Position numbers and translations under genes: made by a program
Part shown: piece by piece, positions 14,847-47,800 of the stretch
How the letters are laid out: every line of letters begins with the position of its first letter
Numbering within the stretch: the first letter of the stretch is position 1
The notes under the pieces: model-generated
Database searches by the model: none
What the model saw: only the letters and a program-made list of their open reading frames with translations
Told to the model about the DNA's origin: nothing
Source of the DNA: Prorocentrum cordatum
Lineage: Eukaryota
Direction of reading: 5' to 3'
Assembly: GCA_963575745.1 (NCBI GenBank)
Contig: CAUYUJ010000128.1
Span: 62,001 to 117,903 of the forward strand
DNA length: 55,903 nt

Positions 14847-15222
14847 AACATCGTTGATGAGTCTTGGGTTTGCACAGGTCCTCTTCCTCCTCCTCCGTCT
14901 CCAGGCGCAGCGTGCTGCGCAAGCGCTGCCACTTCCATGACCTCGCGTGGGGTGCACTCGGAATGCGGTGCCGTACCCACGGTCGGGTCGCAGCTCCCAG
15001 ACTAGCGTCAGGACAGAAGTCGAGTTCGTCGGCCCAGGGATCCGCTTCCTCAGAATCGCCCCAAATGGGGTCTTGGAGATCGTCCTCGGGCCAACCGTGA
15101 CCGTCATTACTGGCGTTCTCGCCGGGAGCATCTGTGCTGGCCGCGCCGGACCCTCGAGACGTCGACCTGGCCGTCTACCACAGATCGCCATGCGATTCGT
15201 GACACCATATGCATCCCGGTTC

Positions 15223-15239
15223 AGGCATTCTGGTTCAGG
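15223..15239 (+). promoter_or_regulatory. Relict dinoflagellate spliced leader (also at 20118-20134 and 24373-24389)
   Basis: aggcattctggttcagg versus DinoSL 3' part agccattttggctcaag (13/17), ~90 nt upstream of the ATG. Confidence 0.55.
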
Positions 15240-15327
15240 CAGACCTGGAGCAGCTTCCCCTTTGTCCGTAATCTGCACACGCGCGAAAACATTTGGCCTG
15301 CGGGTCCTTTCCTTTCAGTTCCGTGGG

Positions 15328-20225: not shown

Positions 20226-21795
20226 ATGGCGGTCCAGAAGGCACTTTGGACCGTGTGGTCCGCGGTTGCATTCGTCCTCAGCATCAGCGTGCCCATGGCG
20301 ACCTCCATCGGTGTGAGCTCCAAGCTGAAGTGTGCAGATGACGACGCCCAAATTATTGCGCTGGCAAGCGGCATCGGCGTCAGCATCAGTGGTTGTGCTG
20401 ACTGAGGTGCAGCCTTACTGCGAGAACTCGAAGTATGGCAGCACTGTGCAGGCGACCTGCCCTGCAACGTGTGGCCTCTGCAAGGTGGCCAGGCCCAGCA
20501 GCTCCCAGGCGGCGAAGGTGCTAATGGACAGCTCCAGGGGCTCCCGGGACGCGCAGTCTCTGGACAGGTCTTTGGCGGCGAAAGGGCCCGACCCGACGCC
20601 GAGACCGACGCCGTGGCCGACGCCGTGGCCGACGCGGTGGCCGACGCCGAGGCCGACGCCGTGGCCGACGCCGTGGCCGACGCGGTACCCGACGCCAAGG
20701 CCGACGCCGTACCCGACGCCGAGGCCGACGCCGTATCCGACGCCGAGGCCGACGCCGTACCCGACGCCGAGGCCGACGCCGTACCCGACGCCGAGGCCGA
20801 CGCCGTGGCCGACGCCGAAGCCGACGCCGTATCCGACGCCGAAGCCGACGCCGAACCCGACGCCGAACCCGACGCCGTACCCGACGCCGAACCCGACGCC
20901 GAACCCGACGCCGTACCCGACGCCGTACCCGACGCCGTACCCGACGCCGTACCCGACGCCGTACCCGACGGCCTTCCCGACGCCGAACCACGGCCGAACC
21001 GACGCCGTACCCGACTTCCAAGGGCCGACGCCGAACCCGACGCCGTACCCGTCTCCGTACCCGACGGCCTTCCCGACGCCCTACCCGACGGCCTTCCCCA
21101 CGCCTTTCCCGACGGCCTTCCCGACGCCCTACCCGACTGCCTTCCCGACGCCTTACCCAACAGCTTTCCCGACGCCCTACCCGACGGCCTTCCCGACGTC
21201 CTTCCCGACGCCCAGCCCGACGCCCAGCCCGACGTATCCTCTGAGTTGGCCGACGCCACATCCAACGTTTCCTCCCGCAGGTCCTACGGCGGGCGGAGCT
21301 GGCGGAGGCGTGGCTGCCACTGGCGATCCCCACCTTCAAAACGTTCACGGCGAGCGATTCGATCTAATGCAGGCGGGCAAACATGTTCTGATAAACATTC
21401 CTCGTGGTGTGAGCGCTGAAGACGCATTGCTTCGTGTGCAGGCCGATGCCCGCCGCGTGGGTGGAAGTTGCTCGGATATGTACTTCCAAGAACTGAACAT
21501 TACTGGCTCTTGGGCAGAGGCTAAGCAAGTTGGAGGGTATCACTACAGCGTGCAGCAAAGCGTAACGAAGACTCCGCAATGGGTTGCTCTCGGTCAGGTT
21601 GAGCTGAAAGTCGTCCATGGACGCACAGAGAGTGGCATCCTGTACTTGAATGTGTATGTGAAGCATTTGGGGCGATCAGGGTTTGCCGTCGGAGGTCTGC
21701 TGGGGGAAGACGACCACAAGGACGTGATGACTCCCCCGGCATCTTGTACCAGACACATTTCTTTGGTAGGAGTAGTGACGAGCGGGATACTTTGA
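20226..21795 (+). CDS. Array gene copy 2; a 4-bp CTGA duplication at 20398-20405 causes a frameshift and stop
   Basis: Same domains as copy 1; ORFs 19842-20405 and 20332-21795 join across the duplication. Confidence 0.8.
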
Positions 21796-24477: not shown

Positions 24478-26086
24478 ATGGCGGTCCAGAAGGTACCTTG
24501 GACCGTGTGGTCCGCGGTTGCATTCGTCCTCAGCATCAGCGTGCCCATGGCGACCTCCATCGGTGTGAGCTCCAAGCTGAAGTGTGCAGATGACGACGCC
24601 CAAATTATTGCGCTGGCAAGCGGCATCGGCGTCAGCATCAGTGGTTGTGCTGAGGTGCAGCCTTACTGCGAGAACTCGAAGTATGGCAGCACTGTGCAGG
24701 CGACCTGCCCTGCAACGTGTGGCCTCTGCAAGGTGGCCAGGCCCAGCAGCTCCCAGGCGGCGAAGGTGCTAATGGACAGCTCCAGGGGCTCCCGGGACGC
24801 GGATGATCAGCAGTCTCTGGACAGGTCTTTGGCGGCGAAAGGGCCCGACCCGACGCCGAGACCGACGCCGTGGCCGACGCCGTGGCCGACGCGGTGGCCG
24901 ACGCGGTACCCGACGCCGAAGCCGACGCCGTACCCGACGCCGAGGCCGACGCCGTACGCCGTGGCCGACGCCCCGAAGGCCGACGCCGTACCCGACGCCG
25001 AGGCCGACGCCGTATCCGACGCCGAGGCCGACGCCGTACCCGACGCCGAGGCCGACGCCGTACCCGACGCCGAGGCCGACGCCGAACCCGACGCCGAACC
25101 CGACGCCGTACCCGACGCCGAAGCCGACGCCGAACCCGACGCCGAACACGACGCCGTACCCGACGCCGAACCCGACGCCGAACCCGACGCCGTACCCGAC
25201 TCCGAACCCGACGCCGAACCCGACGCCGAACCCGACGCCGTACCCGACGACGAAGCCGACGCCGAACCCGACGCCGAACCCGACGCCGTACCCGACTCCG
25301 AAGCCGACGCCGAACCCGACGCCGAACCCGACGCCGTACCCGTCACCGTACCCGACGGCCTTCCCGACGCCCTACCCGACGGCCTTCCCCACGCCCTTCC
25401 CGACGGCCTTCCCGACGCCCTACCCGACGGCCTTCCCGACGCCTTACCCAACAGCTTTCCCGACGCCCTACCCGACGGCCTTTCCGACGTCCTTCCCGAC
25501 GCCCAGCCCGACACCCAGCCCGACGTATCCTCTGAGTTGGCCGACGCCACATCCAACGTTTCCTCCCGCAGGTCCTACGGCGGGCGGAGCTGGCGGAGGC
25601 GTGGCTGCCACTGGCGATCCCCACCTTCAAAACGTTCACGGCGAGCGATTCGATCTAATGCAGGCGGGCAAACATGTTCTGATAAACATTCCTCGTGGTG
25701 TGAGCGCTGAAGACGCATTGCTTCGTGTGCAGGCCGATGCCCGCCGCGTGGGTGGAAGTTGCTCGGATATGTACTTCCAAGAACTGAACATTACAGGCTC
25801 TTGGGCAGAGGCTAAGCAAGTTGGAGGGTATCACTACAGCGTGCAGCAAAGCGTAACGAAGACTCCGCAATGGGTTGCTCTCGTTCAGGTTGAGCTGAAA
25901 GTCGTCCATGGACGCACAGAGAGTGGCATCCTGTACTTGAATGTGTATGTGAAGCATTTGGGGCGATCAGGGTTTGCCGTCGGAGGTCTGCTGGGAGAAG
26001 ACGACCACAAAGACGTGATGACTCCCCCGGCATCTTGTACCAGACATATTTCTTTGGTAGGAGTAGTGACGAGCGGGATACTTTGA
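24478..26086 (+). CDS. Array gene copy 3; frameshift at ~24958-24975
   Basis: Same domains; ORFs 24154-25710 and 24803-26086 join within the repeat. Confidence 0.8.
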
Positions 26087-33079: not shown

Positions 33080-35220
33080 CGGACCCCCGTCGGGTTTCAA
33101 GTCCGGGTTCGACGGGCATCACAGGGCTGAGTTCGCACGCGGCGCAGGAGTCCCCGACCTTCGCCAGCGGGATCTTTTTCCTGTACCCCTTCTTCGGGAC
33201 ATCCGACCTCGTGGAGGACCTCCCTGCGCTGCTTGCCGGGCTACCCAGAGGAGAGCTCACCGTCAGCCCGCCATCGACGCAGCGACGGACGAGCCCATCG
33301 GTACCCTCAACGACATGCACGGGGCGACGCGTCGTGGGTCCCCCCGCGACGCCTCGAGGCCGACGATGGCGCAAAGTCTTGCCCTGGACCACCTGCGCCA
33401 ACGCGCAGCAGACACAGGGCCGGCCCCCGACGACCTCGACTGGCCAGGGGCCTTCGACGAGCTTCGGTCCAGGCCGGCCTACGACAGTTCATCCTCTCGG
33501 CTTGCTCCTCTTCGCGTGGATTTCCTGGACCTGCCTCCACCTGGATTTCGACCTGCGTCGTCGCAGGAGGCCGTGGGTTCGGTGGGCGAGCTGATCGAGA
33601 CGAGGCTTTCAGACGAGGCGCTACCAGGCGTGGAGGGGAAAGCGAAGTTGAAGCTCCTGGGCTGGCGTCGGGCTTAAACCGGCCCCGCTATGAGGGGCCG
33701 CAAGGTGTATTTGGAGATCCTGAAACGGCTCCACGCCGCCAACTTCCTCGACTTTCAGCGCAAAGTAAGACGTCGAGTGGGGTGCTTCAGTGCCTGGAAG
33801 AAGTCAGGGGCGCAAGAGCTCGTCATCGACGCACGCACCGCGATCTGTTTCTTCGAGGATCATGACCCCGCGCAGATCGCCAGCCGAGCTTGCTTCGCCA
33901 ACCTGCAGCTGGACGCGGGGCCGCCGCCGGTGCTGGGCGGCGCCGACATCCGCGCGGCCTTCTACGCGATCTCCATGCCCCCCCCCGAGGTGCGCGACCT
34001 CTTCGGCTTCGACAGGGTGCGCGCCTGGGAGCTGGGCGCGTCGGAGGAGGAGGGGCAGCCCGCCAAATCTGGCGAGTCCATCCACCCCGTTATCGCCGTG
34101 CTGCCGATGGGCTGGGCTGGGCGCTGGCTCCGCAGGCCTGCCAGACGCTGCGCGAGGAGCTGGCGCGGCGACCGCCCGACGCGTCGGAGGCCAACGCGCT
34201 GGTCGACGGCGGGCCCCCGCCCGGGCCGACGCCCATCGCGCGCGCCGGATGCGCTGACAACTCCGCGTGCTTCGGGCGGGACCCCGCCGTGGTGAGGGAC
34301 GTGGTGGCCCGCGTCCGAGGTCGCCTGGAAGCTGCAGGCCTGCCGATGCACGACATCGAGCTCAGCGCGGGTGGCGACGCGCTCGGCTGTCACTTCACCG
34401 AGGACGGGCGCTGCTCGATGTCGCTGCGCAGTGCGTGGCGGCTGCGGCTCGCGGCCCTGCGCGCGGCGCAGCTCGGGCGGGCCAGCGGGCGCGAGATCTC
34501 AGCGCTCATGGGCCACTTCGCGACGCGGGGTCTCGTCCGCGCGAGGTGCTGGGCGCGCCCTAGGCATGCTTCGCCTTTGCCCAGCAGTTCCAAAAAGAAA
34601 GAGTGACCCTGTGGCCTTCGGTGGTTCGCGAGCTCAAGCGGATTGCCACCCTAGTCTTCGTGGCCTCTCTGGAGCTCGACGCCTCCTGGAGCCCTACAGC
34701 GCGTGCGTTCAATGCGTCGTCTTGGGGGTGCGGGGTGGTGAGCAAGTACGTTGGCGAGACGGGCGCGAAGACGACGGGGTGCTGCAGTGACAGATGGCGG
34801 TTTTCAAGACGAGAAGGAGACGATCACTTTCACGATCCTCGTGGAGACCTCTTTCGGGGTGACGGAGTCGAGGGCGTCGATCGTGCGCCTCCTTTTCCTG
34901 GGCGAGTCTGGGGAGGATAGTGGCGTCGCGCGGCCTCGTTTCGGTGGGCGTCCGGGGACCGCCAGGTTCACTTGGAGCTCTCGGGCTGCTACCTGGATGC
35001 TCAATCACCTGGCCAGGACTTCCACATGTCATGGACAGCGCCACCTGATTCTCGGAGATGCGATGACTGTAATTCTTTCTCGGGCCAAGGGCCGTGGAGG
35101 CTCGTTTGGCCTCAGCCGCGCCCTTCGGAGATCGGCGGCCCTGGTGCTCGCGGCCAACCTGCCCCCCGCCTGGCGCTGGCTGCCCTCCGGGAGGGACGCT
35201 GCTGATGCGGCCTCGCGAGG
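33069..35220 (+). pseudogene. DIRS-type reverse transcriptase and RNase H, with multiple disruptions
   Basis: RDLFPVP; FSAWKKSGAQELVIDAR; ADIRAAFY; VLPMGW; CADN (degenerate YVDN); NASSWGCGV; LILGDAM..AKGR; WRWLPS..AADAASR. Confidence 0.85.
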
Positions 35221-35419
35221 CCGCCGCTGCCCGCGCGCCTCAGCCCGGGGCCCCCCCCGCGACGCCGCGGCCGCGGTTGCTCCCTCGGGGCCGCGGCGCG
35301 CGGGGCGCGGCGGCCGCTGCCCCTCGGCGAGCCGCCCGGAACGCCTTCCCCGGCGCGGGCCGCTGATAGCCGAGGCCGAGGCGCGAGGCCCACCCCGCTC
35401 GCGAGGAGGCAATCGTGCG

Positions 35420-36220
35420 CGAGGCGCGCGCCGCGGCTCGCCGCGCTGTCCGCCCCCCGCCGTCGGCGAGGGGCAGTGGGGCTCGTCGGGGATGGTGGTT
35501 GCTGGGGCTGCGCTCGGCGAGGCTGCGGCTAGAGTCAGAGTGCCGCGACCAGTTCCAGCGCTTCCTGGAGTGGGCGTGCCAGCAGCAGCTCCGCGGCCAG
35601 CGGTCGTCCGATGCCGAGAGCGCCGTGGTGGAGATGCCGAACCAGACGCATTGCGGCGGCTGGGCGTCGAACGCGGCTTCGAGGGCACGCCTGCCCTTGT
35701 CGAAGGCTGCGGCGCGCCTTGTGGCCGAGCTGCTGATGGACCAGGGGGGCTGTCTCGTCGGCGCGGCCGCCCTCTTCGCCTGCGCCCGCTACTTGAGGCT
35801 GGGCGGGCTCTTGAGGATCCGCGAGGGCGATCTGGCGCCGCCTGCGGGCTCGGAGCGCGCGCTGAGGAAGAAGTGGAGCATCGCCCTCCACCCCCAGGAG
35901 CCGGCGGAGATGTCCGAGGCAGGTGTTGGGGGCGAGACCATCCTGATCGTCGCCGTAGACCCCTTCAAGTTCGTGGAGAGGGTGACGGCGCGGCTCCGCG
36001 GGAGCGGAAGCGCCGCCCAGGTGTTTCCCGTCGCCTACCGCGAGTGGGCCGTGGCGCCCGAGACGGTTGCCGAGGCCGTGGGCCTCATCGGCGAGGCGAC
36101 GCCTGTGCTGTGCGCGCCGAGACACGGCACGGCATCCCACGACGCGATGACGGGCGCCCGCGACGCCAGGGCGATCCAGGACCGAGGGCGCGTGAACCAG
36201 GTGCTGCGGCCGCCGCCCGC
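35420..36220 (+). pseudogene. Tyrosine recombinase, truncated before the catalytic Tyr
   Basis: RYLRLGGLL (box I Arg), WSIALHP, PRHGTASHD..IQDRGR (box II). Confidence 0.75.
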
Positions 36221-36282
36221 CAGCGAGGCGAGGGCGGCCGCCGCCGCCGAGCAGACGACTTCCGCGTGGCTCCTGCCGAGTT

Positions 36283-37094
36283 GATGCGACGCTGGCGGCC
36301 GGGCAGCTTCGCTCGGCTGGGGTTCGCCCTGAAGCTGTTCGAAGGCACGGGCCGCCTGAGCGCGGCTCGGCGTCAGGCCCCGAGGCTTCGCGGTATTCCG
36401 ATCTTTGAGATCAACTCGAGGCACGGACCCCAACGCGATATTCTGCAGAGATCCCTCCAGAGTTTCATCCGAGCTCGTGTTCGAGACGGTTCTCTCCGAG
36501 CCGTGTGGCTCGGTTTGCCTTGCAATAGTTTTAGCACGGGTCGCAATCGGCCCAACGGGCTGGCGACGCTGCGAAATGCTAGTTTCCCTCTGGGCCTGCC
36601 GGGACTGAAACCCTGGGATGAGAATGCCGTCTGTGTCGGGAACGCTCTCGCCGCCTTGTCGGGTGGGCTCCTCGGTCTCGCGAGCCGATGCGGGATGCCG
36701 CTTGCGATCGAGAATCGTGGCCAGAGCTGGGTATGGAACCACTCTGCCCTCTCCCCTGGGTCGCCGTCGTCGCTGTCGTCCTCCTCTGCTCCCCCCTCCT
36801 CCACCCTCGACTTTTTCGTATATTTTTGTCTGGGGGGACTTCCCTGGGGGCAGCGGACTCGGTTTCGTGCCACGAATCTGAACATGGGGCCCGCTGTAAA
36901 ACGTTGCGACGGTCGAGGGCTGTGCGCTCGCTCAGGGGGTTTTCACACATGCAGGTAGAAGGCAAGAATATCGAGGGTACTGTGTACATTGAACTCGCCG
37001 AAGCGTGCCCTCGCAAGCTGTGCTTCCGAATCGCCACATGTTTCAGCACCGTTTTTTTTGACCAGCGCGTACGGAAGGTTCGACCCTATCTGTA
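36283..37094 (+). pseudogene. C5-cytosine DNA methyltransferase-like domain
   Basis: Motif I LKLFEGTG, motif IV WLGLPCNSFS (catalytic Cys retained), motif VI IEN, C-terminal AEACPRKLCFRIA; frameshift near 36940. Confidence 0.75.
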
Positions 37095-37599
37095 GTTTCT
37101 CGGGCCCTTGCTTTTTCCCCGGGGCGGGCCCTTTGTGCCTGGGTCCTGGGGTCGACTGATTTTCGGGTCCTTCGGGTCCGCTCCTGGGCTCGTTTCGGGC
37201 GGCCGCTCTCGCGGCCAAGTCCTGATTGTGCAGTTTGCCTGGTTGTGGATCCGTGTAAGATGCGTCCGATTCAACTCGTTAAATGTTCGGCGTGTGCCGA
37301 ATTCTGCAGAGCACGCGAGCACTTTAACACAGAACTCCCGTGGCCCAGCAGCGCGGCGCATAGCAACGAGATCCTCCTCCTCGTCTTCTTCCTCTCCTCC
37401 TCCTCCTCCTCCTCCTCCTCCTCCTCCTCCACCTCCTCCTCCTCCTCCTCCTCCTCCTCCTCCTCCCCTCCTCCTCCTCCTCCCCCTCCTCCTCCTCCTC
37501 CTCCTCCTCCTCCTCCTCCTCCTCCTCCTCGTCGTTTTCCTCCTCCTCCTCCGCCCTTTCCTTCCCATGGCAGTGGTGGCGGAGAATCGGCCCATCGAG

Positions 37600-37635
37600 G
37601 TGGCCGAGCTGAAGAGCCGCGAGGCGGCCGCGAAG
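37600..37635 (+). CDS. Candidate host-gene micro-exon (VAELKSREAAAK)
   Basis: tcgAG|G acceptor, AAG|GC donor, 36 nt, phase 0. Confidence 0.4.
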
Positions 37636-37999
37636 GCGGGCAGGGCGTCCTCTCTTCGCGCCTGGCGGCGTCGCCCTGTCTCTGGGGGCGCGACGGGGCC
37701 CGCTGCCCGACGGGTCCCACTCCGAGGAGGAGAAGCCAGGGCCACAGATACGGAGGGGAGGGTAGACATAGGGGGGGGGAGGAGGAGGAGCAGGAGGAGG
37801 AGGAGGAGGAGGAGGAGGTGGAGGAGGAGGAGGATAGGATAGGACCGTGGGGCGCCGATCCGTGACAACTCTACTGACTGCAAACTACAATCTGAAAGAG
37901 CGTGCCGCAGAGAGGGGGGTGGCGCCTGGGTTCTCCGTGCGGAGGGCTATCTTGACACGCCGCCGCGCGCTGATCGGCGCCCGTGTGGGGCCGACACAG

Positions 38000-38035
38000 G
38001 CCTGGCGGCGGGCCCAGCAGGCGCGCAGCATTGAG
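38000..38035 (+). CDS. Candidate host-gene micro-exon (AWRRAQQARSIE)
   Basis: cacAG|G acceptor, GAG|GC donor, 36 nt, phase 0. Confidence 0.35.
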
Positions 38036-38578
38036 GCTGCCGCCCTCGGCACCGCCCCCAGCTACCTGCCTGGACGGTGCCGCCCCTTTCCCTTGCCTGG
38101 CGGGCGTGGGCGGGGGAGTGCGATGGCTGGCCCCACTTCGGGAGCCGAAGGAAAGTAAACAGGAGATGGGTAGCAGCAGCAGGCGAGAGGGGAGGAGGCT
38201 CAAGGCCAGGAGGAGCAGGAATCGCAGCAGGAAGAAGAGTAAGGGGGGTGGACGCTTCAGCCAGTCCCGAGACCTGCTGCGCTGCCGATTCACTCAGCAA
38301 CCCTCGGTTCAGGAGCCTCTGAGCGTGGCGACTGGACCTCCAATCAGGGCCCACCCCCAAAGAAACAAAATTGCTGCTAGCACTAGAAGCCTGCTCGACA
38401 CTATCTCTTGAACGAGCCTCCAGGTCAGGCGGAAGTCTGGCGGGCCTAGTGGGAGAGAGCCCGCGAAGACCTCTGGCGACCCCCATTTCGGAAGCAACTC
38501 TAAGTAGCACTTGACCTGGAGTTTCTACAACAGGGGCCCTCACTGCCTCACAAGATCCTGAAGCCGCTGCCGTCACTA

Positions 38579-39269
38579 CTACTTCACCAGATCCAGAAGC
38601 CTCTGAGCCTCCCTCACAAGAACGCCTCGGGGAGCCCCTCCGATCGTTTTCTCTGCACCCTGCTCCACCAGCGCCTCGCGGATGGCCTTGAGAAGGACCA
38701 CCCCGTCGTTCGTCGTCGTGTCCAGAAGGAACTGGATCTTCACCTGCTCGCCCTGCTTGGCGTTCTTGGTCTTGAGCCTCTGTACGCGGCAGTAGCGCAC
38801 CATCTCGTGGAGCTCGTTCGGCGAGGCAGCCTTCATCACCTTCTGGTCCCAGTAGGTCTTCAGCACCTGGCGGCCAGCCTTCAGCGTGTCCCCCTCGCAA
38901 CTCGAGCTGCTCGCCCTTCTTCGCGGCCTCCGCCAGCTTCTGGCGCCGCTCCCCCGCCTCGGTGTTGAAGTTGGCCCCCTCCTCGAGCGTACGCTGGGCC
39001 ACGGCGGCGTCGAGCGGCGTGAGGAATGTGTCGTACACCGCGCCCAGCATCGCCCTCAACTGCGCCTCGTCCGTAAGCACCAGCTTGGCCAGGACCACCA
39101 CGAGCTCCTATAGCGTCTGCTTCTTGTTGGCGCCCTTGGCGCCGCCGACCGCCACGACCTGCTGCGAGCCGACTCCGCGGTCTTCGCCGCCTCGCCTGGG
39201 CTCCTTGTGAGCGGGGCCTCCGTCCCTGCGCCTGCCCATCCAAGCGGGGCGCGCCTGAGACTCTGGCAT
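38579..39269 (-). pseudogene. Uncharacterised ~230-codon ORF downstream of and overlapping the RT tail (stop at 39108-39110, frameshift ~38875)
   Basis: Three ORF fragments join into a coherent protein: MPESQARP..VVVLAKLVLTDEAQLRAMLG..YWDQKV..VRYCRV..GGAPRGVLVREAQRLL. Confidence 0.65.
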
Positions 39270-41740
39270 CAGCTTCGAGTAGCTGCTCGTCAAGATATCT
39301 GTGCTGCTTTCGGTCGTACACCCTCAACACTTGAGGTAAATGACTACTGACATGGTGTTGGTAATCGGGGAGTTCAGATGCATGGTAACCGCATATCTTG
39401 CATAAGAGGTCATCGGGCTCCTGTAGTGGCTCCTGTGAGTGACCCCCTCCAGCATAGCAGCACCCTCGGACCATAGACCCCACCAGATGTCGAGCCGCAG
39501 TCACACGGCAGGAAAACAACTCCAAACAATTCGGGCATTGATTGGTAACACATAAGACATGGCCCAAATAACGTAGGTGGTGATGAAATCGCAGATGATT
39601 GAGGGCCGATTTCTTATCACAAAACTTGGCGTTGCACCTACATCTTCTCCCCAACGTCATACCGTCCTCGCCCTCCTCCTCCTTGAAAACTCCACATATG
39701 CATCTGAACGCGACCCCTTCCACCACCTCCTGCTCGAGAACCTGGTCCAAGGGGGACTCGTACTCAGGGGGCGGGATAGCTACTGTGTGTTGTTTGCGTC
39801 GTAACTGGGTAACGTCGATCTTGCAAAAGTCCCTCCCAAGATTCTTATCCCAGGAGAGAGCGAGGAAAGACCCCTGAAGTCGTGTTAGTAATGTTTCTCC
39901 TTCTTCTAGAGACGAACGCGATTCCAGGTCGGCGTAAAATGTCCTGGCCCACGGGTTAGCAGATGCTGACAAGCGTCCCATGTAATTAAATTGAGGCCGC
40001 TCGTCCGTGGGCAAGGTACCGAACATCGCAGCCAATATCTGCGAGTTCCTGCGAGGAAACTGAACAAATTGGGCAAGCCATCCAAGCCTGCGAATCCTGA
40101 GCTCGGTGAAAGTTGGGACCATGCGCCAGTGCTCGAGCACCTTCGCATTCGACAAGGTCTGCGTGTGCCGTTCGCCTTCAAAGCTGGCACCATGCATTGC
40201 AACGCGACAATACCGAACGATAGCCGAGTCGAGCTTATTGCACTGGCTCTCCGTGACGAGAAAGGTTTCTAGATTAGATATCCCAGCGTTCTGGACCCCC
40301 AGTAGACAAGACCTTTCAAGCCGATGAGGTACCCCAGGAGTAGACCAGAACCTGCCCAAGGAATGATATGCCGACTTTATTGCCACTATTCTCTTGTTGA
40401 TCTCAGGCGCCAGTGCTCCAGAGCTGTGAATATGTGCTCCTAGGACTCGCATGGCGGGACGAACTCCGCCAGAAAAAAAGAGCGTCCCCATCCTTTCGCA
40501 GACGTCGGTTGGCATCCACAGACCCCTTCCCCGTCAGACTAATGATGGTGTTCTGCTTCATAACGTTCTGCTCCCATCCCCCCGTAGATAAGTGCTCATC
40601 TAGTCGTGCGTTGGAAAACTCGTTTATGCTGCTAAGTTCTGCCAACCCTGCGTCTTGCAAAGGAGAGTCGGGACCACCTCCAACATGCAACTTGGTCAGA
40701 TCGTCAGCATACTTAGTGAGACTCAAGTCCATGTGCTGATGCGTGACTGGGCATTCAGCTGCAAGCAGACTCTCCGAGTCAACACAGTCCAAGAGTTGCT
40801 CGCTCCAGCAATCCACTGGAGCAGCATAAGCACGGCCAAAACTTTCTACTGCGTAGGGGTCGCCCATGAGAGCCCCGCACTTGGGCTTCACGAGAAGCCT
40901 CTTGTCCGCAGCTGGCAACTGAATAGTAGCTGATCGTACTCTATCAAGCCCAAAACGCTGATCCTCGGGCTCAAGCAAGAGAGAATTGGCAAGCTCGAGC
41001 GCATCCCAGCTGGTGGACGCGAAAGCGTTGCTGAGGTCCTTGTTGGACCAGCTGGCGGAATAACCTGAAACTCGAAGCCTATGTAGCATACACTGAATAA
41101 CCAACATGGCCCCTTCCTTTCGTCGGCCTCTTGAGAAACCGTAATCCGAAGGTCCCAAGGGAAGCGGTCGCTTCCGGGCAATAGCTGCGGCAAGCCAAGC
41201 TTTTCCCAAGGGGTCGAGAAGGTGAATTACGCGCTTTCCCTTGGGCCCTGGCACCGACGATTTTGGAAGCCCACATCCGAAACTTCTGTTCCAGAGCCGT
41301 GGAAAACGTCCAGCGAAACGAACACACTGAAGGCCCTTATGCAGAGCCGTATACAAAACAGCGGAGTCCAATTCTTTGTCCGCTCCAAGCCCTAGTCGAT
41401 CTGGCGCCAGCCCAAATTCAGGATCAATGACAATCCCCCACAGTTCGCCTGGAAGAGACCATGGCGGGCATGAACGTCTCTTGGGGGCCCTACGAAGATA
41501 ACTACCAATACCAATCATATCTGTCATAGCCTCTACGCTGAATGCGCCATAATAACCGCTCTGGCCCACCTCCTCGCACTCCTCGTCCTCCGCAATCTCC
41601 TCCACCTCCATCCCCCCTCTCGGTCCTTCCAGGGCCCAAACACTCAACCACTCATCAGAAGTTAGCGTGGCACCCTGCATGTGACGATAGCTCCTACCGC
41701 GAGGGCCTCTTCCACGAGATGCCAGTAAGCGAATGAGGCG
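38881..41740 (-). pseudogene. Reverse transcriptase with C-terminal C2H2 zinc fingers; one frameshift at the homopolymer 40473-40479
   Basis: LPKS..KRVIHLLD, YGFSRGRR, KDLSNAFAS, GALMGD, KYADD, RVLGAH..EINKRI; CRCNAKF..LNHLRFHH, QCPNC..ARHL, CKICG..HHVSSH. Confidence 0.9.
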
Positions 41741-41775
41741 GGAGGAGGAGGAGGAGGAGGAGGAGGAGGAGGAGG

Positions 41776-41915
41776 AAAAGGTGCCGATACGGCTACCGTC
41801 GCCTTGTTTTCCCCTTTTCTGGGCCTCCTGGGAGGCCCTCGTCACCACCGCTGGACTCGCCTCGGAATCTCTGTCAAAACGCACCCCAGAAGAAGTCAGG
41901 GAGTGGTCCGGGGCA
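41776..41915 (+). mobile_element. MITE family A copy
   Basis: Starts aaaaggtgccgatacggctac, approximately the reverse complement of the family 3' end seen at 2218-2240. Confidence 0.65.
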
Positions 41916-42669
41916 ACGACAGGGGGGAATGGGCATAGGGGGGGATGCATGAATCCCCAATCGCCCATTGATCGCCGATAGGGGGCCGATAGCCCCCACC
42001 TGCCCAGGAACGGGCAGATTTGCAATCGGGGGCCGATCGCCGATCTATGGACGATGTATCGTCGATTCCAGGTCGATGTCTCCCCCTCGATGCCAGTCCC
42101 CACCTATCGTGGCCCCTCAAGAAGGTGCAGACAGCTCGCATGCCCAGCCCTCGTCTGGTGTACAAAATCACGGCGGGATGTTTTTCGCTACTTTCGGCCG
42201 TCAGGGGCCCTTACCGGGCCTCGGCCCTGTCAACAAAACAATTCCGGACGAAACACCGGTCCGAGGGAAGGGGTCCAGACCTTTGTGGGGGTCGACGTCG
42301 TGACACAAATCACGACGTCGGGGGTTTGGGTGGTCAGGATTGTGAGTTTCTAGGGATATCCTTGCATCCTCCACCTTCGGCGCCAAGCCTTGACCGCTTT
42401 TGCTGGCCGCGCCCCGCTCGCCAGGTGCCAGCATGGCCTCTTAAAGCCCTTGCATTCTTATTTGTCTTCCTTCTTATACGGATTGGCTGTACCGAGCAAC
42501 ACCTCGCATTCGAGCGACATGCAAGAGTAGATCCGAGCTTGCCCAGGGCGGGCTTTTTCGGCCTCACGTTTTTCATTGTTGCACGCCGAGTGGAATATGT
42601 CCACCGCGCCCGCAACAGCTCCTCTGCCGCCTGGAATGTGATTCCATTGGTCCGCAAAAAAACGGATTG

Positions 42670-42806
42670 GCTGTACCGAGACCGCTGCCCGAGCTTCGTT
42701 TTCGCCATTGTGGGTGACGCCTTCTTCGCAACGGCGGGATTCGCCTCGAAATGCTGGTCAGAAGGCGCCCCGGGAGAGGTCCGTGGAGTGACAGTATGGG
42801 CACCTT
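42670..42806 (+). mobile_element. MITE family A copy (diverged)
   Basis: gggattcgcctcgaaatgctggtcagaaggcgccccgggagaggtcc..gtatgggcacctt. Confidence 0.6.
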
Positions 42807-43015
42807 CTGTTTCCCCCCACGCATCAGGTATTAGGTGCTCGTTCGGGGGACCTTTCCTGGGCGCACCCGGCGGATCTCGTCGACCCTGCTTCGACTCAAG
42901 CTCGACACAAGTTCGACGCAAGGAGATGGAGGGTCGACGCAGCAGGAACGCGTGAGTGGAGCGAGTGGCTCCAGGCAGGCCCCCAGTTCGGGCATCTTTC
43001 GGCGACGAGAAAGGC

Positions 43016-43195
43016 GGGGGGGGGGGAATGAGAAGGGGCGGGCCTTCTCAGAAGGCTCCGAAGTCTCCGCGACTTCTGGGAAGTTTTCTGGGTCTCTTCG
43101 GGAGACGCGAAACAACACATCGGAAGGCGCGAGAGAGGTTCTGAGAAATCCCGCCGCCTTCCGAGAAGGCCCTCTCCTTCTCGCTTCCCCCCCCC
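43016..43195. mobile_element. MITE-like inverted repeat element
   Basis: ggggggaatgagaaggggcgggccttctcagaagg ... ccttccgagaaggccctctccttctcgcttcccccc. Confidence 0.7.
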
Positions 43196-44144
43196 TCCCT
43201 CGCTCGCCGGATCTCCTCTCCAGGTGGAGATGGTGCCCTCTCCGTCGGGTGTCCCGGCAGCCCCCGCCCCCCATTCTCGAGCAGGGGTGGACCTAAACGG
43301 TGTTTTGGTAATTTCGTGGGCCGTTGTCGTTTCGACGTCGTTTTGCAGCAAAGGCGAACTCAAGACAAAACGAGGCAAAGCGAACACAACACGAAAACGA
43401 AAAACACCGCTCAGGTCCAGCCCTGTTCTCGAGGCGAGTCTTTGGCAGGCCTGAGGCGCGAGGGGGGGGGGGGGGGGGGGCCCTGGCCGACCGGGGAACA
43501 GCCCGTGCAGGGAAAAGGAAAGCACCGAGGCCGCGGTCCGTCCCTCGCCACGGCCGAATATTGGCCTCGACGTCCTGGTCCCGAAGGAGAGAACGCCATG
43601 AACCTACACGTTGTTCACTTCTAATGCCTCGAAGGTTATTTGATTTTCTGGGGGGCCAAGATCCTCTCATTTCTAATTGTTCTGCCCTGGGCTTCGTCCT
43701 GGCCACTAGGGGGCCAAGAACAACTAGAAACGAGCACAATTAGGAATGAGCACGATTAGAAATGAACGACTTGTAGTCTCGAAGAAGATAATCCGCCATG
43801 AACCTAAACTTTTGGAGCTCCACGCACATCTCTTGTATTCCGCGCAGTCTCCCCCTCCCGGCGGCGCCTCCAGCGCCCCCCATTGGCTCGCTCCGCGCGC
43901 CAGCGAGGGGGGTCCGGCTCAGATTCAGGAGTTCGGCGCGCACCGTCACGAGTTGGTGTCAGCTCCGCTTGATGTTGCTCCACTGTCGGCACGCGCCGCT
44001 GGAGAGGTCCGGGGAGAAACCCCAGAGATCCGACGTCCTGATTCTTCCTAGATGGTGTCCCCCGAAGTCTCGACCCCTTCCCGGGGTCCGGCGTTTAAAC
44101 CTGGGTCGTTTCCGTTCGGGCCCGGGGCCCGGCGGGGGCCCCCA

Positions 44145-44480
44145 GAGTTTGGAGAGAGTGGAGGTTCTGCGTCTCGCGTGTTTGAGTCCGCTGGAGCTCT
44201 GGGGCGCTTCCAGTCGGACGGGGGGCTAGGACGAGCCGCCGGATCTCAGAGATCACCGATTCAAATCCTAACCCGATGTTATCTTCTCGTCCTGGCCTTT
44301 GTCTTAGAACACTTTCGTCTCGACTTTTTGAATACCTTAGAGTTCTGGGGCGGTCCCAGTCGGACGGGGCCAGGACGAGCCGATTATCCTCACCCAATTA
44401 TATCCTCGTCCTGGCCCCGTTTGGGAAAACGTGCGTCTTGACGTTTTAAGTGCCTTGGAGCACTGGGGCGGTCCCAGGGT
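44145..44480. repeat. About 2.5 diverged tandem copies of a ~125-145-bp unit, each full unit containing a hairpin
   Basis: ctggggcg..ccag recurs at ~44199, 44345 and 44463; stems aggacgag...ctcgtcct. Confidence 0.6.
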
Positions 44481-44739
44481 CTGACTTTCCCCTCCTCCTC
44501 CTCCTCCTCCTCCTCCTCCTCCTGCTCCTCGTACCTCCTCCTCCTCCTCCTCCTCCTCCTCCTACTCCTCCTCCTCCTCCTCCCTCCTCTTGCTCCTCCA
44601 ACTCCTTCTCCTCCTCCTCCTCCTCCTCCTCCTCCTCCTCTTCCTCCTCCTCCTCCTCCTCCTCCTCCCTCCTCCTCCTCCTCCTCCTCCGATGGGGAGC
44701 GGCCTGGCAGCACCTGCGGCCTGGCAGCACCTGCGACAG

Positions 44740-44772
44740 GCCAGGGCCTCGGCGGCGGGCGGCGCCGCGGAG
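44740..44772 (+). CDS. Candidate host-gene micro-exon (ARASAAGGAAE..; donor uncertain)
   Basis: gacAG|G acceptor; Ala/Glu-rich frame; possible GAG|GA donor. Confidence 0.3.
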
Positions 44773-44888
44773 GACGCCTTGGCGGACGCGGAGCGGCGCC
44801 CTCGGGGACGGGGACAGCGAAGCACAGCTCCCATCTCGTTCCTCCCCGCCCCTCCCTTTCCCAGGACCCATTCTCGTCGTCATCGTCG

Positions 44889-47800
44889 TCCTCGTGCGTA
44901 CTTCAGAGCGGGTCGTGCTTGCCAGCCAAACTGGCACCACGAACTCGACTGGTCCATGGCACCGCGGGGCAACGCGCATGGGGATCGAGCTCCAAATCAG
45001 ACACAGGCGCAATGGAAGTGCATGGGCAAGCGCGGCGGTTGCCCGAAGTGCACTCCGAGGGCGGAGTGCAGGGCCTATGGGGCCTGCGGTCCGCCCAGTG
45101 TGCTGGCGGCCATCAAGGCGCGCGGGCCCCTCAGCTTCGGAGCGGCCTTTTGGCGCGGCGGAGGACAACGGGGCACGGTCCAGCCGTAAGGCAAGGTCAA
45201 GGCCAAGCTTCAGAGCAGCGCGCGAGGTGCTCAGTGGACCGGCGGCAAGGACTGGAGCGCCCATTTGAAGACGGAGCTCGTGCAGGGAGCTGAAAGGGCA
45301 GCCGCGGGCCGTGGGGAGCCTCAGCCTGGCAGAGCTCCTCGAGGCCACCAGCAAGGGCTGTCCGGCGGGACCCCCCAGGTGCTCAAGCGGAAGGCCGACA
45401 AGAAGAAGCAGGTGGAGAAGGCCAAGCTCCGCGTGGCGGAGCGGGCCCAGGAGCTCGCGGATGCGCAGGAGGCTCACGATGCGGAGCTGCGCCAACTCCG
45501 CGAGCACGACGCGAAGCTCGCCGAGCGCGTGGCCCTGGAGAAGAGCAAGTGCGCGGAGGCGGCGATGGGCCCGGCAGACAAGATTCTGGTCGCCGCGTTC
45601 GACCAGCTCGCGAGGCTCCTCGACGCAGTCGGCCAGGAGGGACCTCGACGCCGTCCGCGCCCAGGCTGCGAAGGTGCGCGAAAAGCTCTTCGCCGCCGAG
45701 AGCGAGGCCGTTGCCGCCAAGGACGGTGCCCCTTTTTTGGCAGCTCCTGGCGCTGCTGGCCCTAGGGCCCACGCGGGCGGCGGCGATGCCAGAGGAGGCA
45801 TAGACGTGGAGGTGCCCGATCTCGATGTCGGCCAGGACCTCGCCGACCTGGCGGTCGATGAGGTCGAAAGGCTGGGCGGCGCCAGGCAAGCCTTCGACCT
45901 GGAGAAGCCCGACGACGTGGCGAAGCCCAAGCGCGTGGCCCCCAGGTTCGTGGACGTGCAAGCCCTGGCTGCCCAGCGGCAGCAGGTTTGACCTGCTGGC
46001 GGCTGGAGTGACCTGCCCGCCAGACGCCTTTTGCCAGGGAGGGAATTCGGCACGACGGACCTCGGCGTATGCTGGGACACCGACGCGTGCGACCTGGAGT
46101 GGCCAGTGTTTGGGCATCCTGAGCTTTTGCAGAGGCCGTCGGGGTGCCCGCGGGCCATCGAGCGCCGCGGGCCTGCGGGCCTGCCCACGGGCCGCCGCTG
46201 GCGCGAGGCTGGGGGGGGCGTGCCGCTGCTGGCGGGGCAGCGCGGGCGGGGCCTCGGCAGCTCAGCCAGAGGGAGGCGCGTTGGCCAGGCGGGGGGGGGG
46301 GCAGGCGGGCAGCTCGCCGAGCGCTCTGAGGCCCCCCCCCCCGAGGCAGGCGCAGCCGCGCCACCGCCCCATGGCGGGCAGCATGGCCAGCGGCGGCCGA
46401 CCGGCACCTGGAGGAGACAGCCAGCAGCGCACCGATGTTGGCCCAGACCTGCCCGAGAGGATGATGCTGGCCATGGCGAATGCCAATTTGTGGGCGAGGG
46501 GTCAGACCTTTCTGGAATGGCGACGCGACAAGAATACCGTCGACGCGATCGGCCTACAGGGGCACCGCCCCCAGCACCCTGCGAGGGTGAGGTCGGCGTC
46601 TGGCTGGGCGCGGCGCGCGCCAGCCGCGGAGACAGGCCCAGGGTCGCTCGACAGATCTGGCGGCGCGGCTGTCACGACGCCGATGGCGGCAGCGAGCGAG
46701 GAGAGGCCCAAGGAATGCAGCGCGCTGGGCCCCCGGGGAGCCCAGGCAGGCAAGCGCGGCGCGGGGCTCGGGGTCCCGATCGTCGTCTTCTCGGCCTACC
46801 TGTTGGGCAGAATCGGGGTCACTGGCGAGAATATTGTGCTGCTCGATGCCCCGCAGGCCTGGGTGGGCGGCCTCGCCTGGCCGCGGGCCATGCTGGCGGA
46901 CTGGCACATCGAGCCAGAGGACCTCGCCAGATGGGCCAAGCAGACGGCGTGAGTTCTGCGCAGACCCTGGAGCCTGACGCGCGGCACGCGGGAGCATGAC
47001 TTCGCCACCATGTCGGGAGCCCTCCCAGGCCGCGCCGGCGCCGTGGAACGCGCTGATTGGCGCGCCGAACTCACCCACCGCCATCGAGCTGAAGGGCCTG
47101 CGCGAGCGGGCCGCGGTCACCAGAGCTGTGTTCCCCAGCCGCCACCCGCTTGCCCTGCCGCTTCCTGTCCAGTCTACCCCGCCTGAGCTCGCCGAGGCGG
47201 AGTGGCCGTGGCAGCTGGGGAGTGGGCCAGGTGACATCGAGTGCGCCTCGAGGCTCTGGTACGCCATGGCGGAGGACTACCTCGACAGGCTGGCCAGGGG
47301 TTCCAGGTCGAGACGATTCCGCTAGTGCTCGGGTGGGAAACCTCGCTGCAGGAGACGACGAGCGCGGGGTGCCGCAAGTGGGCGGGCTCCCTGGCCGCTT
47401 ACAGGAAGGCGGCCACCCTGCGTGGCCACCGGGAGGACATGGGCTCGCAGAGGTTCGCCCGCTTCAAGCGCCAGGCGCGCGCCATGGGGGTCTTCGACTT
47501 CAGCGGCCGCGACTGGCCGTCGGACGGCCCCCCGGCGCACTGGGGCCACTGCGCCATCGCGAACGCGTTCGAGAGGCAGGACCTGCACGTGCACCACGGG
47601 CTCCTAGTGGACCTCCACAACTACGCGGCGACCTTCAGGCGCGTAACAAGCGCAGGCGCAGCAAGGAATGGAGGGGGTAGGCGCAGGAAGCGGCCACCAA
47701 GTCTGGGGGCCAGCGTGCATGCCGCTTCATCAAGGATGGCAGCCTAGTCTCATCGACGGTAGTGGCGCATGGTGGCGACGAGCATGACCCTGGCCTAACT

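What the first reader, a model, noticed from the sequence alone, without database searches (positions are those of the whole stretch)
38579..39600. Non-LTR retroelement with an unknown second ORF downstream of, and overlapping, the RT
Seen: after the RT and three C2H2-like fingers, a different frame on the same strand encodes a ~230-aa, apparently helical protein ending GGAPRGVLVREAQRLL. It has only one stop and one frameshift and overlaps the RT frame by ~390 nt. Established: LINE accessory ORF1 normally precedes RT. Inference: this is an integral 3' ORF of unknown function (RNA chaperone, targeting factor or nuclease) that would survive 5' truncation.
Basis: partly seen in the sequence, partly recalled or inferred. 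Interest (0 to 1): 0.72.

Follow-up and report, generated by a model that had tools for sequence, protein, structure and literature searches.

The report
Dead LINE-like element with real 3' gene
A decayed dinoflagellate retroelement carries, just after its reverse-transcriptase-like gene, a broken copy of a real but unstudied family of about 240-residue basic proteins with no recognised fold, an unusual gene order for this kind of element.

Summary
The ORF is real. A profile built only from outside homologues hits both halves (E 1.6e-34 and 1.5e-17). The C-terminal half finds 38 protein clusters among 1.84 billion.

The coordinates and details need correcting. The ORF runs on the minus strand from ATG 39269 to a double TAG at 38576-38581. 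Bases 39270-39600 are the Cys/His tail of the RT-like ORF. The "frameshift" is a ~74-nt deletion of 25 conserved codons. The TAG is copy-specific. The 390-nt "overlap" is an ordinary GC-rich open frame. The window copy is dead and 5'-truncated.

Linkage to the RT-like gene recurs in a second, diverged Prorocentrum cordatum locus (P0007). Both loci fall in one clade, so a single capture of a host gene is not excluded.

The family is basic and has no invariant catalytic-type residue. It matches no Pfam family, no solved structure by sequence, and no clear fold.

My best reading (0.55) is a non-enzymatic accessory protein encoded 3' of a LINE-like RT and translated from its own AUG. The RT itself matches no RT profile; it is identified from the order of its motifs and language-model similarity. 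It is a new variant of a known kind, of moderate interest.

The parts
40406..41815 (-). RT-like ORF, N-terminal, fingers and palm part. Motif A SNKDLSNAF lies at 41021-41047, motif B GALMGDP at 40856-40876, and YADD at 40700-40711. The copy is 5'-truncated or interrupted upstream.
   Evidence: tblastn of outside homologues P0048 and P0049 (39-42% identity) covers 41815-40496. No Pfam, PADLOC or NCBIfam RT profile hits it. In the ESM Atlas, 27 of 30 feature hits are clusters carrying RVT_1.
39340..40533 (-). RT-like ORF, second frame after a frameshift near 40495. It holds the motif-E-like and thumb-like region and an extension, then three Cys/His motifs at 39577-39642, 39460-39537 and 39340-39402.
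   Evidence: P0048 residues 327-554 align to 40665-39994 in the other frame, and P0007 residues 330-410 align to 40041-39799 at 67%. The Cys/His motifs were found by regular expression. Pfam zf-C2H2_4 scores only E 1.4.
39108..39269 (-). 3' ORF, first part: start ATG 39267-39269 (MPESQARPAWMG...), a Gly/Ala/Lys/Arg-rich linker, then a premature TAG at 39108-39110.
   Evidence: Transcript-derived protein P0001 starts at the same Met and has Glu at the TAG position. 3 of 3 X1 contigs read GAG there.
38898..39107 (-). 3' ORF, N-terminal conserved domain (ELVVVLAKLVLTDEAQLR...KKGEQLEL).
   Evidence: The A1 profile hits it at E 1.5e-17, positions 45-110. It is 83-91% identical to P0001, P0002 and P0003.
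38888..38897 (-). Site of a deletion of about 74 nt (25 codons lost, frame changed).
   Evidence: Profile positions about 111-131 are missing. The homologue sequences are and the junction bases. One X1 contig joins 38888 to 38897 with further letters between.
38579..38896 (-). 3' ORF, C-terminal conserved domain (EGDTLKAGRQVLKTYW...GGAPRGVLVREAQRLLDLVK) and its stop codon.
   Evidence: The A1 profile hits it at E 1.6e-34. It finds 38 clusters at E <= 1e-3 among 1.84 billion representatives.
37836..38578 (-). Non-coding 3' part shared by other copies of the repeat family. It is followed on the coding strand by a (CCT)n microsatellite at about 37770-37835.
   Evidence: X1 contigs cover 37835-38635 at summed depths of 18-24, similar to the ORF region, and depth drops to 0-0.9 across 37301-37834. 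The sequence was read.

Best explanation
The window holds a dead, 5'-truncated copy of a dinoflagellate LINE-like retroelement on the minus strand. Its order is an RT-like ORF with a Cys/His-rich tail, then a separate ORF of about 240-250 codons, then about 740 nt of 3' untranslated sequence ending in a microsatellite.

The 3' ORF belongs to a diverse, previously unnamed family of basic alpha/beta proteins. Members share a Met followed closely by a P-x-W motif, a disordered Gly/Ala/Lys-rich linker, a globular domain, and a C-terminal G-[PA]-A-P-R-G-x-L-E-R-[ED]-A-Q-x-L-L helix.

I infer that it is a non-enzymatic accessory protein of the element. The likeliest role is a nucleic-acid-binding or RNP-forming factor that does the job ORF1p does in classical LINEs, but encoded downstream of the RT. 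I infer that it is translated from its own AUG, plausibly from a short mRNA (a 5'-truncated copy or a trans-spliced sub-transcript) rather than by fusion to the RT.

Shown: the ORF is real and conserved; this copy is broken; the order RT-like gene then ORF recurs in a second diverged locus; the family has no known family or fold. Inferred: that the gene belongs to the element, what the protein does, and how it is expressed.
For: THE GENE IS REAL.
- The C-terminal piece finds 38 clusters at E <= 1e-3 (best 7.5e-37) among 1,835,955,588 representatives. 17 of the hits are 195-280 aa long, and in 16 of those 17 the match ends within 10 residues of the C-terminus.
- The N-terminal piece finds 7 proteins at E <= 0.01 among 390 candidates.
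- An outside-only profile recovers both window pieces.

OWN START CODON.
- All 12 alignment members with a complete N-terminus, and the window copy, have a Met 4-14 residues before the W of the P-x-W motif.
- Transcript-derived P0001 starts at the window's ATG.

LINKAGE TO THE RT-LIKE GENE.
- P0007 is collinear with the window. RT motif A matches at 71%, the RT thumb extension at 67%, the ORF N-part at 46% and the ORF C-part at 32%. Both genes have therefore diverged together.
- One X1 contig of 381 nt with 17 differences spans 39047-39427, across the junction between the Cys/His tail and the ORF.
- P0032 is named '...i1.p2'. Read by the usual TransDecoder naming (recalled), that marks a second ORF on one Trinity transcript.

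A TE-LIKE POPULATION.
- P. cordatum alone yields P0002, P0004, P0005, P0007, P0008 and P0036. They are 32-83% identical to the window, and several are partial or internally deleted.
- 2912 records of X1 were laid on the 8-kb stretch 36500-44500, mostly at under 95% likeness (60/408/1029/1415 by identity band). Most of them lie on the neighbouring high-copy repeat. The element region itself, 37835-41572, has summed depths of only about 5-27.

A NON-ENZYMATIC, BASIC PROTEIN.
- The invariant columns are only L, P, G, P, L, R and L.
- 16 of 17 members have pI 8.8-9.65.

NO SECOND RT.
- There is no RT-like sequence downstream of the ORF.
Against: - Both RT-linked loci (the window and P0007) lie in one P. 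cordatum clade with 100/99 support. Linkage could stem from a single event.
- I could not see the DNA around any member of the other lineages. Two metagenome scans, one viral scan and one prokaryote-genome scan found nothing. No whole genome is held.
- 21 of the 22 non-NCBI clusters with a recorded contig length sit on contigs of 523-1743 nt, too short to hold an RT. That fits stand-alone genes as well as short element transcripts. The collection's contigs are short anyway.
- Only one long fused model, P0007, was found among 7997 scored candidates of 413-2000 aa.
- The 'RT' matches no RT profile: Pfam at E <= 10, PADLOC, NCBIfam, and PDB sequences searched with a profile. hhalign against phage BPP-1 Brt gave probability 0.24. 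Its AlphaFold2 model was unusable, with mean pLDDT 35.8.
- No endonuclease domain was seen, because the copy is truncated.
- The functional assignment has no direct support. The best structural matches are Z 4.0-5.0.
Confidence: 0.55

Rival explanations
1. The ORF family is an ordinary multi-copy host gene family of dinoflagellates, one of their many 'dark' genes. In the Prorocentrum lineage one member became joined to a LINE-like element once, by 3' transduction, template switching or a neighbouring insertion. The composite was then copied. The protein would have no role in retrotransposition.
For: All evidence of RT linkage lies in one clade. Most other members are known only from contigs of about 0.5-1.7 kb or transcripts that carry a complete ORF with its own start and stop. 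Only 1 fused long model was found. Retroelements of another dinoflagellate genus, Symbiodinium, are known to capture host genes: SymbioLINE-Dnmt carries a DNMT as its ORF1 (PMC5890265, passages read).
Against: In P0007 and the window the RT-like parts and the ORF have both diverged (67-71% and 32-46% identity). The pair has therefore been kept together over a long period rather than in one recent duplicate. P. cordatum holds many diverged, partly broken copies. No relic spliced leader was found in the window, using the 21-nt motif recalled from memory with up to 3 mismatches: 0 matches. Even under this rival the ORF would be a captured 3' gene of this element lineage.
Confidence: 0.27
2. The ORF is the conventional ORF1 of a second element lying directly downstream in tandem. 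On this reading the apparent 3' position is an accident of two adjacent insertions.
For: Classical LINEs place their accessory ORF upstream of the RT (established knowledge). The 5' part of this element family was not seen.
Against: The RT-like profile A3 hits only 40406-42103 and 38884-40533 in the whole window at E < 0.5. Downstream of the ORF come about 740 nt of family-specific non-coding sequence and a microsatellite. In P0007 the residues after the ORF part show no match to the RT-like region. The ORF start lies only about 70 nt after the last Cys/His motif, with no intervening 3' end or 5' UTR.
Confidence: 0.04
3. The 3' ORF is the element's missing endonuclease or another enzyme, such as a restriction-like endonuclease following a zinc knuckle as in R2-type elements.
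For: The position after an RT and a Cys/His motif recalls the CCHC-plus-RLE arrangement of R2/CRE-type elements (recalled, not tested). No endonuclease was found elsewhere in the truncated copy.
Against: No invariant or near-invariant acidic, His, Lys, Cys or Ser residue occurs in 18 aligned members. The ORF sits in a separate frame with its own AUG. No nuclease appears among the fold-search rows I read (50 rows each). No Pfam family is matched by more than 1 of 18 members.
Confidence: 0.04

Closest known systems
LINE ORF1 proteins (RNA-binding or chaperone accessory proteins of non-LTR retrotransposons; RRM/CCHC, coiled-coil-RRM-CTD and esterase types)
   Same: It is a small, basic accessory protein with no conserved catalytic residues, encoded beside an RT-like gene on the same strand. 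It has its own start codon and a disordered basic linker. The core gives weak ferredoxin-like matches, the topology class that includes RRMs: Z 4.0-4.2 with 77-80 residues aligned to S6 permutants. That is a lead only.
   Different: It is encoded downstream of the RT, not upstream. No Pfam ORF1-type family is hit. It has no CCHC knuckle.
Extra 3' ORFs (ORF3) of bdelloid LTR retrotransposons and Penelope-like Athena/Terminon elements (PMC5408684, passages read)
   Same: Both are accessory ORFs placed after the polymerase gene, of varied and partly unknown function, thought to have been captured and shared between elements.
   Different: Those ORFs belong to LTR and Penelope-like elements, not LINE-like ones. 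The recognised types (env-like, GDSL esterase, DEDDy exonuclease) have identifiable domains. This family has none.
SymbioLINE-Dnmt of Symbiodinium (PMC5890265, passages read)
   Same: It is a dinoflagellate LINE-type element that acquired an unconventional accessory gene kept under selection.
   Different: There the extra gene is a DNMT and occupies the ORF1 position upstream of the RT. Here the extra gene is of unknown family and lies downstream. That RT was recognisable to its authors, whereas this one matches no profile.
R2/CRE-type non-LTR elements (RT followed by a Cys/His motif and a restriction-like endonuclease); recalled, not tested against sequences
   Same: The RT is followed by Cys/His motifs and then a further conserved protein segment.
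   Different: In R2 types the segment is in frame with the RT and has PD-(D/E)xK residues. Here it is a separate frame with its own AUG and has no conserved acidic or Lys residues.

Membership tests
Non-LTR (LINE-like) retrotransposon | Reverse transcriptase domain recognised by RT profiles (Pfam RVT_1 and relatives) | tested here: not met
   0 Pfam families at E <= 1 or 10 for the window pieces and for homologues P0048 and P0049. 0 PADLOC hits and 0 relevant NCBIfam hits. The PDB search by sequence and by profile gave nothing relevant. hhalign against the BPP-1 Brt RT gave probability 0.24.
Non-LTR (LINE-like) retrotransposon | RT motifs 0-7 in LINE order, with the catalytic Asp of motif A and Y/FxDD in motif C | tested here: inconclusive
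   Read by eye in alignment A3 against patterns recalled from memory: P..slP.ELW; W..s....K...PGP.GKR..H.L.P.GK; GF...RRKEGA; D..NAF; G..MGDP.AV.SF; KYADD; QN..KQ; LG...........E...R....K.A...LG.FW. All are present in that order (coordinates). In the ESM Atlas, 27 of 30 feature hits are RVT_1 clusters at scores 0.91-0.94, but only 158 features are shared, below the tool's 170 guide value. The structural test failed, with mean pLDDT 35.8.
Non-LTR (LINE-like) retrotransposon | Endonuclease (APE-type upstream of the RT, or RLE downstream) | tested here: inconclusive
   None was found. Homology to P0049 starts only at 41815, next to a poly-Ser microsatellite and an unrelated high-copy repeat. The upstream ORFs I scanned (42337-43047, 41993-42952, 44449-46671) have no relevant Pfam hit. 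The copy is truncated, so the absence says little.
Non-LTR (LINE-like) retrotransposon | Dispersed, multi-copy, 5'-truncated copies with a simple-repeat or A-rich 3' end | tested here: inconclusive
   Diverged copies are present in DNA run X1 across 37835-41572. The family-specific sequence ends at a (CCT)n run. Target-site duplications and other copies' ends were not examined, because no genome is held.
LINE ORF1p families (Transposase_22, RRM/CCHC, esterase types) | Sequence membership in a known ORF1 family | tested here: not met
   No Pfam family is matched by more than 1 of 18 members, with a best E of 0.0044 to an unrelated DUF. The window pieces gave 0 families.
LINE ORF1p families (Transposase_22, RRM/CCHC, esterase types) | Position upstream of the RT ORF | tested here: not met
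   The ORF lies downstream of the RT-like gene in the window and in P0007.
LINE ORF1p families (Transposase_22, RRM/CCHC, esterase types) | RNA binding and oligomerisation | not testable with these tools
   Only indirect signs exist: pI 8.8-9.65 in 16 of 17 members.
   1 of the 3 motifs is canonical (CKICGYHASELPDYQHHVSSH, 39340-39402). The other two are CX2CX12HX8C and CX4CX7HX3H. Pfam zf-C2H2_4 scores E 1.4 and 10.3 bits against a cut-off of 27. No homologue covers this region.
Restriction-like or other nucleases | Conserved catalytic acidic, Lys or His residues | tested here: not met
   The invariant columns of A1 are L57, P125, G228, P231, L235, R237 and L243. The near-invariant ones are L54, L59, R66, T75, W158 and L242.

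The most novel reading that the evidence does not exclude
A dinoflagellate retroelement lineage has inverted the classical LINE gene order. Its RNP-forming protein, with a fold not seen in solved structures, is the last cistron. It is expressed from its own AUG on short, possibly spliced-leader trans-spliced, mRNAs. Because LINE insertions are truncated from the 5' end, most dead copies would keep this gene, so the genome would hold a large reservoir of 3' ORFs able to supply the protein in trans. The accompanying RT is so diverged that standard RT profiles miss it, so the whole lineage would be invisible to routine TE annotation.
Probability: 0.2. Interest if true: 0.8.

Novelty: new variant of a known kind. 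Interest (0 to 1): 0.55.

Why it matters
Dinoflagellate genomes are huge, repeat-rich and full of genes of unknown function. Three things would follow if the reading holds.

First, this ~240-aa family would move from 'dark gene' to 'retroelement accessory protein'. That changes how many gene models in these genomes should be read. Several P. cordatum models (P0002, P0004, P0005, P0007, P0008, P0036) would be element ORFs or chimeras.

Second, it would show a LINE-like element whose accessory gene lies 3' of the RT. That arrangement bears on cis-preference and on what 5'-truncated copies can still express.

Third, the partner RT-like protein escapes Pfam RVT_1 and every other profile tried here. 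Repeat annotation that relies on such profiles probably under-counts this lineage.

The window copy itself is dead and of no functional consequence.

Tried and rejected
- Whole-genome search: no genome is held for this window.
- Wrong frame: the 'C piece' given (protein 1) and one search was in the wrong frame. I corrected it and repeated the search.
- Genomic context of homologues: the alignment A1 was too diverse for pattern scanning. Scans with A2 and P0012 against metagenome contigs, A2 against viral contigs and A2 against prokaryote genome contigs found pattern matches, but none encoded a relative.
- Expression: no RNA holder was listed for the stretch. Only DNA runs kept as contigs could be laid, so transcript ends and spliced-leader junctions could not be examined.
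- Relic DinoSL: the motif was recalled from memory. The 21-mer gave 0 matches with up to 3 mismatches. The 13-mer gave 1 match at 31070, at chance level.
- Fold of the ORF protein: the model has pLDDT 78.2 and pTM 0.67. Foldseek against the PDB gave a best E of 0.44, with 0 matches at <= 1e-3. BFVD gave a best E of 0.22. VIA-align against 48,161 chains gave 0 matches at Z >= 5 in the whole-model count, with a top re-aligned row at Z 5.0 on 51 residues. The second look at 998 chains gave a best Z of 4.8.
- ESM Atlas for P0005: no usable hit.
- PDB sequence search for the ORF protein: nothing for P0005. The A1 profile gave a best E of 0.093, to mitoribosomal bL35m, which I judge to be noise.
- RT structure: the model has pLDDT 35.8, so I did not search with it.
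- hhalign of A3 against the phage BPP-1 reverse transcriptase: probability 0.24. This is a weak test, because one side was a single distant sequence.
- Earlier findings of this scan: nothing by place, sequence or words.
- Literature: five full-text searches and passages read in six papers turned up no description of a dinoflagellate LINE with a 3' ORF, or of this protein family. Supplements were not consulted. The proteome tables of PMC10449503 might show whether CAK0838501.1 (P0005) is detected as protein.
- dN/dS: not computed, because no homologue DNA was available.
Full report
WHAT IS AT THE COORDINATES

The feature lies on the minus strand. Reading 5' to 3' on that strand there are four parts.

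(a) An RT-like ORF in two frames, 41815-40496 and then 40533-39340. A frameshift near 40495 separates the two frames.

(b) Three Cys/His motifs at 39577-39642, 39460-39537 and 39340-39402. Only the last has canonical CX2CX12HX4H spacing. Pfam zf-C2H2_4 reaches only E 1.4.

(c) A second ORF in another frame. It starts at ATG 39267-39269, about 70 nt after the last Cys/His motif, and ends at TAG TAG 38576-38581.

(d) About 740 nt of non-coding sequence ending in a (CCT)n run near 37835.

The reported interval 38579-39600 therefore joins the second ORF (38579-39269) to the Cys/His tail of the RT-like ORF.

IS THE SECOND ORF REAL?

Yes. Pfam gives nothing for any piece. However, the 69-aa N-terminal piece finds 7 proteins at E <= 0.01 among 390 candidates. 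These include unnamed Prorocentrum cordatum proteins and transcript-derived EukProt entries at 83-91% identity.

The 102-aa C-terminal piece was scored against all 1.84 billion cluster representatives. It finds 38 at E <= 1e-3, 4 at <= 1e-10 and 1 at <= 1e-30. One of the 38, P0016, is a Lys-rich repeat protein and looks spurious. Seventeen hits are 195-280 aa long, and in 16 of those the match ends within 10 residues of the C-terminus.

A profile built from 18 of these outside sequences (A1) recovers both window pieces at E 1.6e-34 and 1.5e-17. It recovers nothing else in the window below E 0.2.

THE WINDOW COPY IS BROKEN

Homologues have Glu where the window has TAG. All 3 of 3 contigs of DNA run X1 that cover 39110 read the Glu codon.

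The change of frame near 38897 is a deletion of about 74 nt. It removes 25 codons (PKM.APFLRTF...DKDEAY) that P0002 and P0003 retain. These correspond to profile positions of about 111-131, including the conserved GPP.LH.W segment. One X1 contig joins 38888 to 38897 with extra letters between.

The RT-like ORF is also frameshifted. Its homology begins only at 41815, beside a poly-Ser microsatellite and an unrelated repeat of very high copy number. The element is therefore a dead, 5'-truncated copy.

THE '390-NT OVERLAP'

The RT frame does stay open to 38881. But beyond the ORF's ATG its translation is Arg/Gly-rich and has no homologue. In this GC-rich window, 17.9% of all 111,506 codon positions have at least 130 open codons ahead. 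I treat the overlap as incidental.

Where the RT frame stops in intact copies could not be determined. The second ORF is in the +1 frame relative to the RT frame, so a -1 frameshift fusion does not apply.

LINKAGE TO THE RT-LIKE GENE

Gene model P0007 (952 aa, P. cordatum) contains the following, in order and on one strand:
- RT motif A, 71% identical to the window;
- the RT thumb extension, 67% identical;
- the ORF N-terminal part, 46% identical;
- the ORF C-terminal part, 32% identical.

This is a second, well-diverged locus with the same order. A 381-nt X1 contig with 17 differences bridges 39047-39427. P0032 carries a name ending '.p2'. Read by the usual TransDecoder naming (recalled), that marks a second ORF on one Trinity transcript. 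No RT-like sequence follows the ORF in the window or in P0007, so the 'ORF1 of a tandem neighbour' reading is unsupported.

There are limits. In a maximum-likelihood tree of 35 rows, the window's relatives form one clade with 100/99 support. These are P0002, P0003, P0004, P0005 and the ORF part of P0007. P0036 and P0033 lie elsewhere. I left out of that tree P0016, the RT-like proteins, the short fragments P0001 and P0006, and every sequence under 140 aa. All linkage evidence therefore comes from a single clade.

Only 1 fused long model was found among 7997 scored candidates. Of the 22 non-NCBI clusters with a recorded contig length, 21 lie on contigs of 523-1743 nt and one on a contig of 10,530 nt. 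Such contigs cannot hold an RT. This fits short mRNAs or 5'-truncated copies as well as stand-alone host genes, and the collection's contigs are short in general. Attempts to fetch the surrounding DNA failed, and no genome is held.

WHAT THE PROTEIN LOOKS LIKE

The family consensus has four parts:
- a Met followed within 4-14 residues by the W of a P-x-W motif, in all 12 members with a complete N-terminus and in the window copy;
- a Gly/Ala/Lys/Arg-rich linker, at pLDDT below 50 in the model;
- a globular part;
- a C-terminal G-[PA]-A-P-R-G-x-L-E-R-[ED]-A-Q-x-L-L helix.

The AlphaFold2 model of P0005 with A1 has mean pLDDT 78.2 and pTM 0.67 and is alpha/beta. It has no significant match in the PDB by Foldseek (best E 0.44), in BFVD (best E 0.22), or by VIA-align against 48,161 chains (no Z >= 5 in the whole-model count). 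The second-look alignment gives only weak ferredoxin-like rows, such as S6 permutants at Z 4.0-4.2 with 77-80 residues aligned. That is a lead and no more. The two halves were not folded separately.

No Pfam family is matched by more than 1 of 18 members. PDB sequence and profile searches give nothing credible. 16 of 17 members have pI 8.8-9.65. The only invariant or near-invariant residues are Leu, Pro, Gly, Arg, Thr and Trp, which argues against a hydrolase or nuclease.

IS THE UPSTREAM GENE AN RT?

Two outside homologues, P0048 and P0049 at 42% identity, were found among 8000 candidates. Alignment A3 shows, in the order expected of LINE-type RTs, segments resembling motifs 0, 1, 2a, A (D..NAF), B (G..MGDP.AV.SF), C (KYADD), D and E. 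That comparison is with patterns recalled from memory.

In the ESM Atlas, 27 of 30 feature hits are RVT_1-carrying clusters at scores 0.91-0.94, but the shared-feature count of 158 is below the tool's guide value of 170.

Against this, every profile test failed:
- Pfam at E <= 10;
- PADLOC and NCBIfam;
- PDB by sequence and by profile;
- hhalign against the BPP-1 RT, probability 0.24.

The structure prediction was unusable at pLDDT 35.8. I rate RT identity at about 0.85-0.9 on motif order alone. No endonuclease was seen, which means little in a truncated copy.

MECHANISM

Shown: a conserved protein-coding gene with its own start codon sits directly 3' of an RT-like gene in two diverged loci, and the gene family is diverse and basic.

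Inferred: it is an accessory protein of the element, non-enzymatic, probably binding nucleic acid and helping to form the RNP, analogous to ORF1p. It would be made from its own AUG. Given the many short contigs carrying only this ORF, it may be made from short transcripts, either 5'-truncated copies or trans-spliced sub-transcripts.

I found no direct evidence on how it is expressed. No RNA run was listed, and no relic spliced leader occurs in the window.

COMPARISON WITH KNOWN SYSTEMS

Classical LINE accessory proteins lie upstream of the RT. Extra 3' ORFs are documented for bdelloid LTR elements and Penelope-like Terminons (PMC5408684, passages). DIRS-1 has overlapping RT and recombinase ORFs (PMC5006619, one passage). 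Dinoflagellate LINEs are known to have captured a DNMT as ORF1 (PMC5890265, passages).

Five full-text searches found no description of a dinoflagellate LINE with a 3' ORF or of this protein family. Passages read in PMC10449503, PMC11453091 and PMC12130899 did not mention one either.

VERDICT

The feature is a new variant of a known kind: a LINE-like element with a downstream accessory gene of an unnamed family. The copy in the window is a pseudogene.

Confidence that the ORF is an integral accessory gene of the element lineage is 0.55. Interest is 0.55.

Noticed in passing
window 41840-43975: A repeat of very high copy number lies directly upstream (on the minus strand) of the truncated RT-like ORF. 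Summed contig depth in DNA run X1 is 325-2637 per bin here, against about 5-27 over the element. Many internal joints and loose ends were seen. The ORFs there have no Pfam hit.
   Followed up: partly
window 14941-16161, 20329-21792, 24148-25707 (+): Three long open frames spaced about 4-5 kb apart each carry a ShK-like domain hit (E 2.6e-5, 3e-3 and 8.6e-5). Two of them also hit a Pro/acidic repeat family. This suggests a tandem array of related genes.
   Followed up: no
window 337-1143 (+): An open frame with a collagen triple-helix repeat hit at E 1.7e-13.
   Followed up: no
window 34742-36955 (+), especially about 36300-36800: A long open frame contains ...GLPCNSFS... and ...AIENRGQS.... 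These recall motifs IV and VI of C5 cytosine methyltransferases (recalled from memory), which dinoflagellate LINEs are known to carry (PMC5890265). Pfam found nothing at E <= 0.1.
   Followed up: partly
proteins P0001, P0003, P0006, P0019 (EukProt set labelled Pyramimonas sp. CCMP1952): Transcript-derived proteins filed under a green-alga label are 90-96% identical to this element's ORF, whose named genomic relatives are all from P. cordatum. The label or the purity of that data set looks doubtful.
   Followed up: no
window 37400-37835 and 41747-41776: Long (GGA)n/(CCT)n microsatellites flank the element's 3' end, and a poly-Ser-coding run interrupts its 5' end. Read laying skipped these stretches.
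   Followed up: no
RT-like ORF, window 39340-41815 (-), and homologues P0048 and P0049: An RT-like protein family with LINE-type motif order is missed by Pfam RVT_1 and by every other profile library tried. This may be a blind spot for repeat annotation in dinoflagellates.
   Followed up: partly
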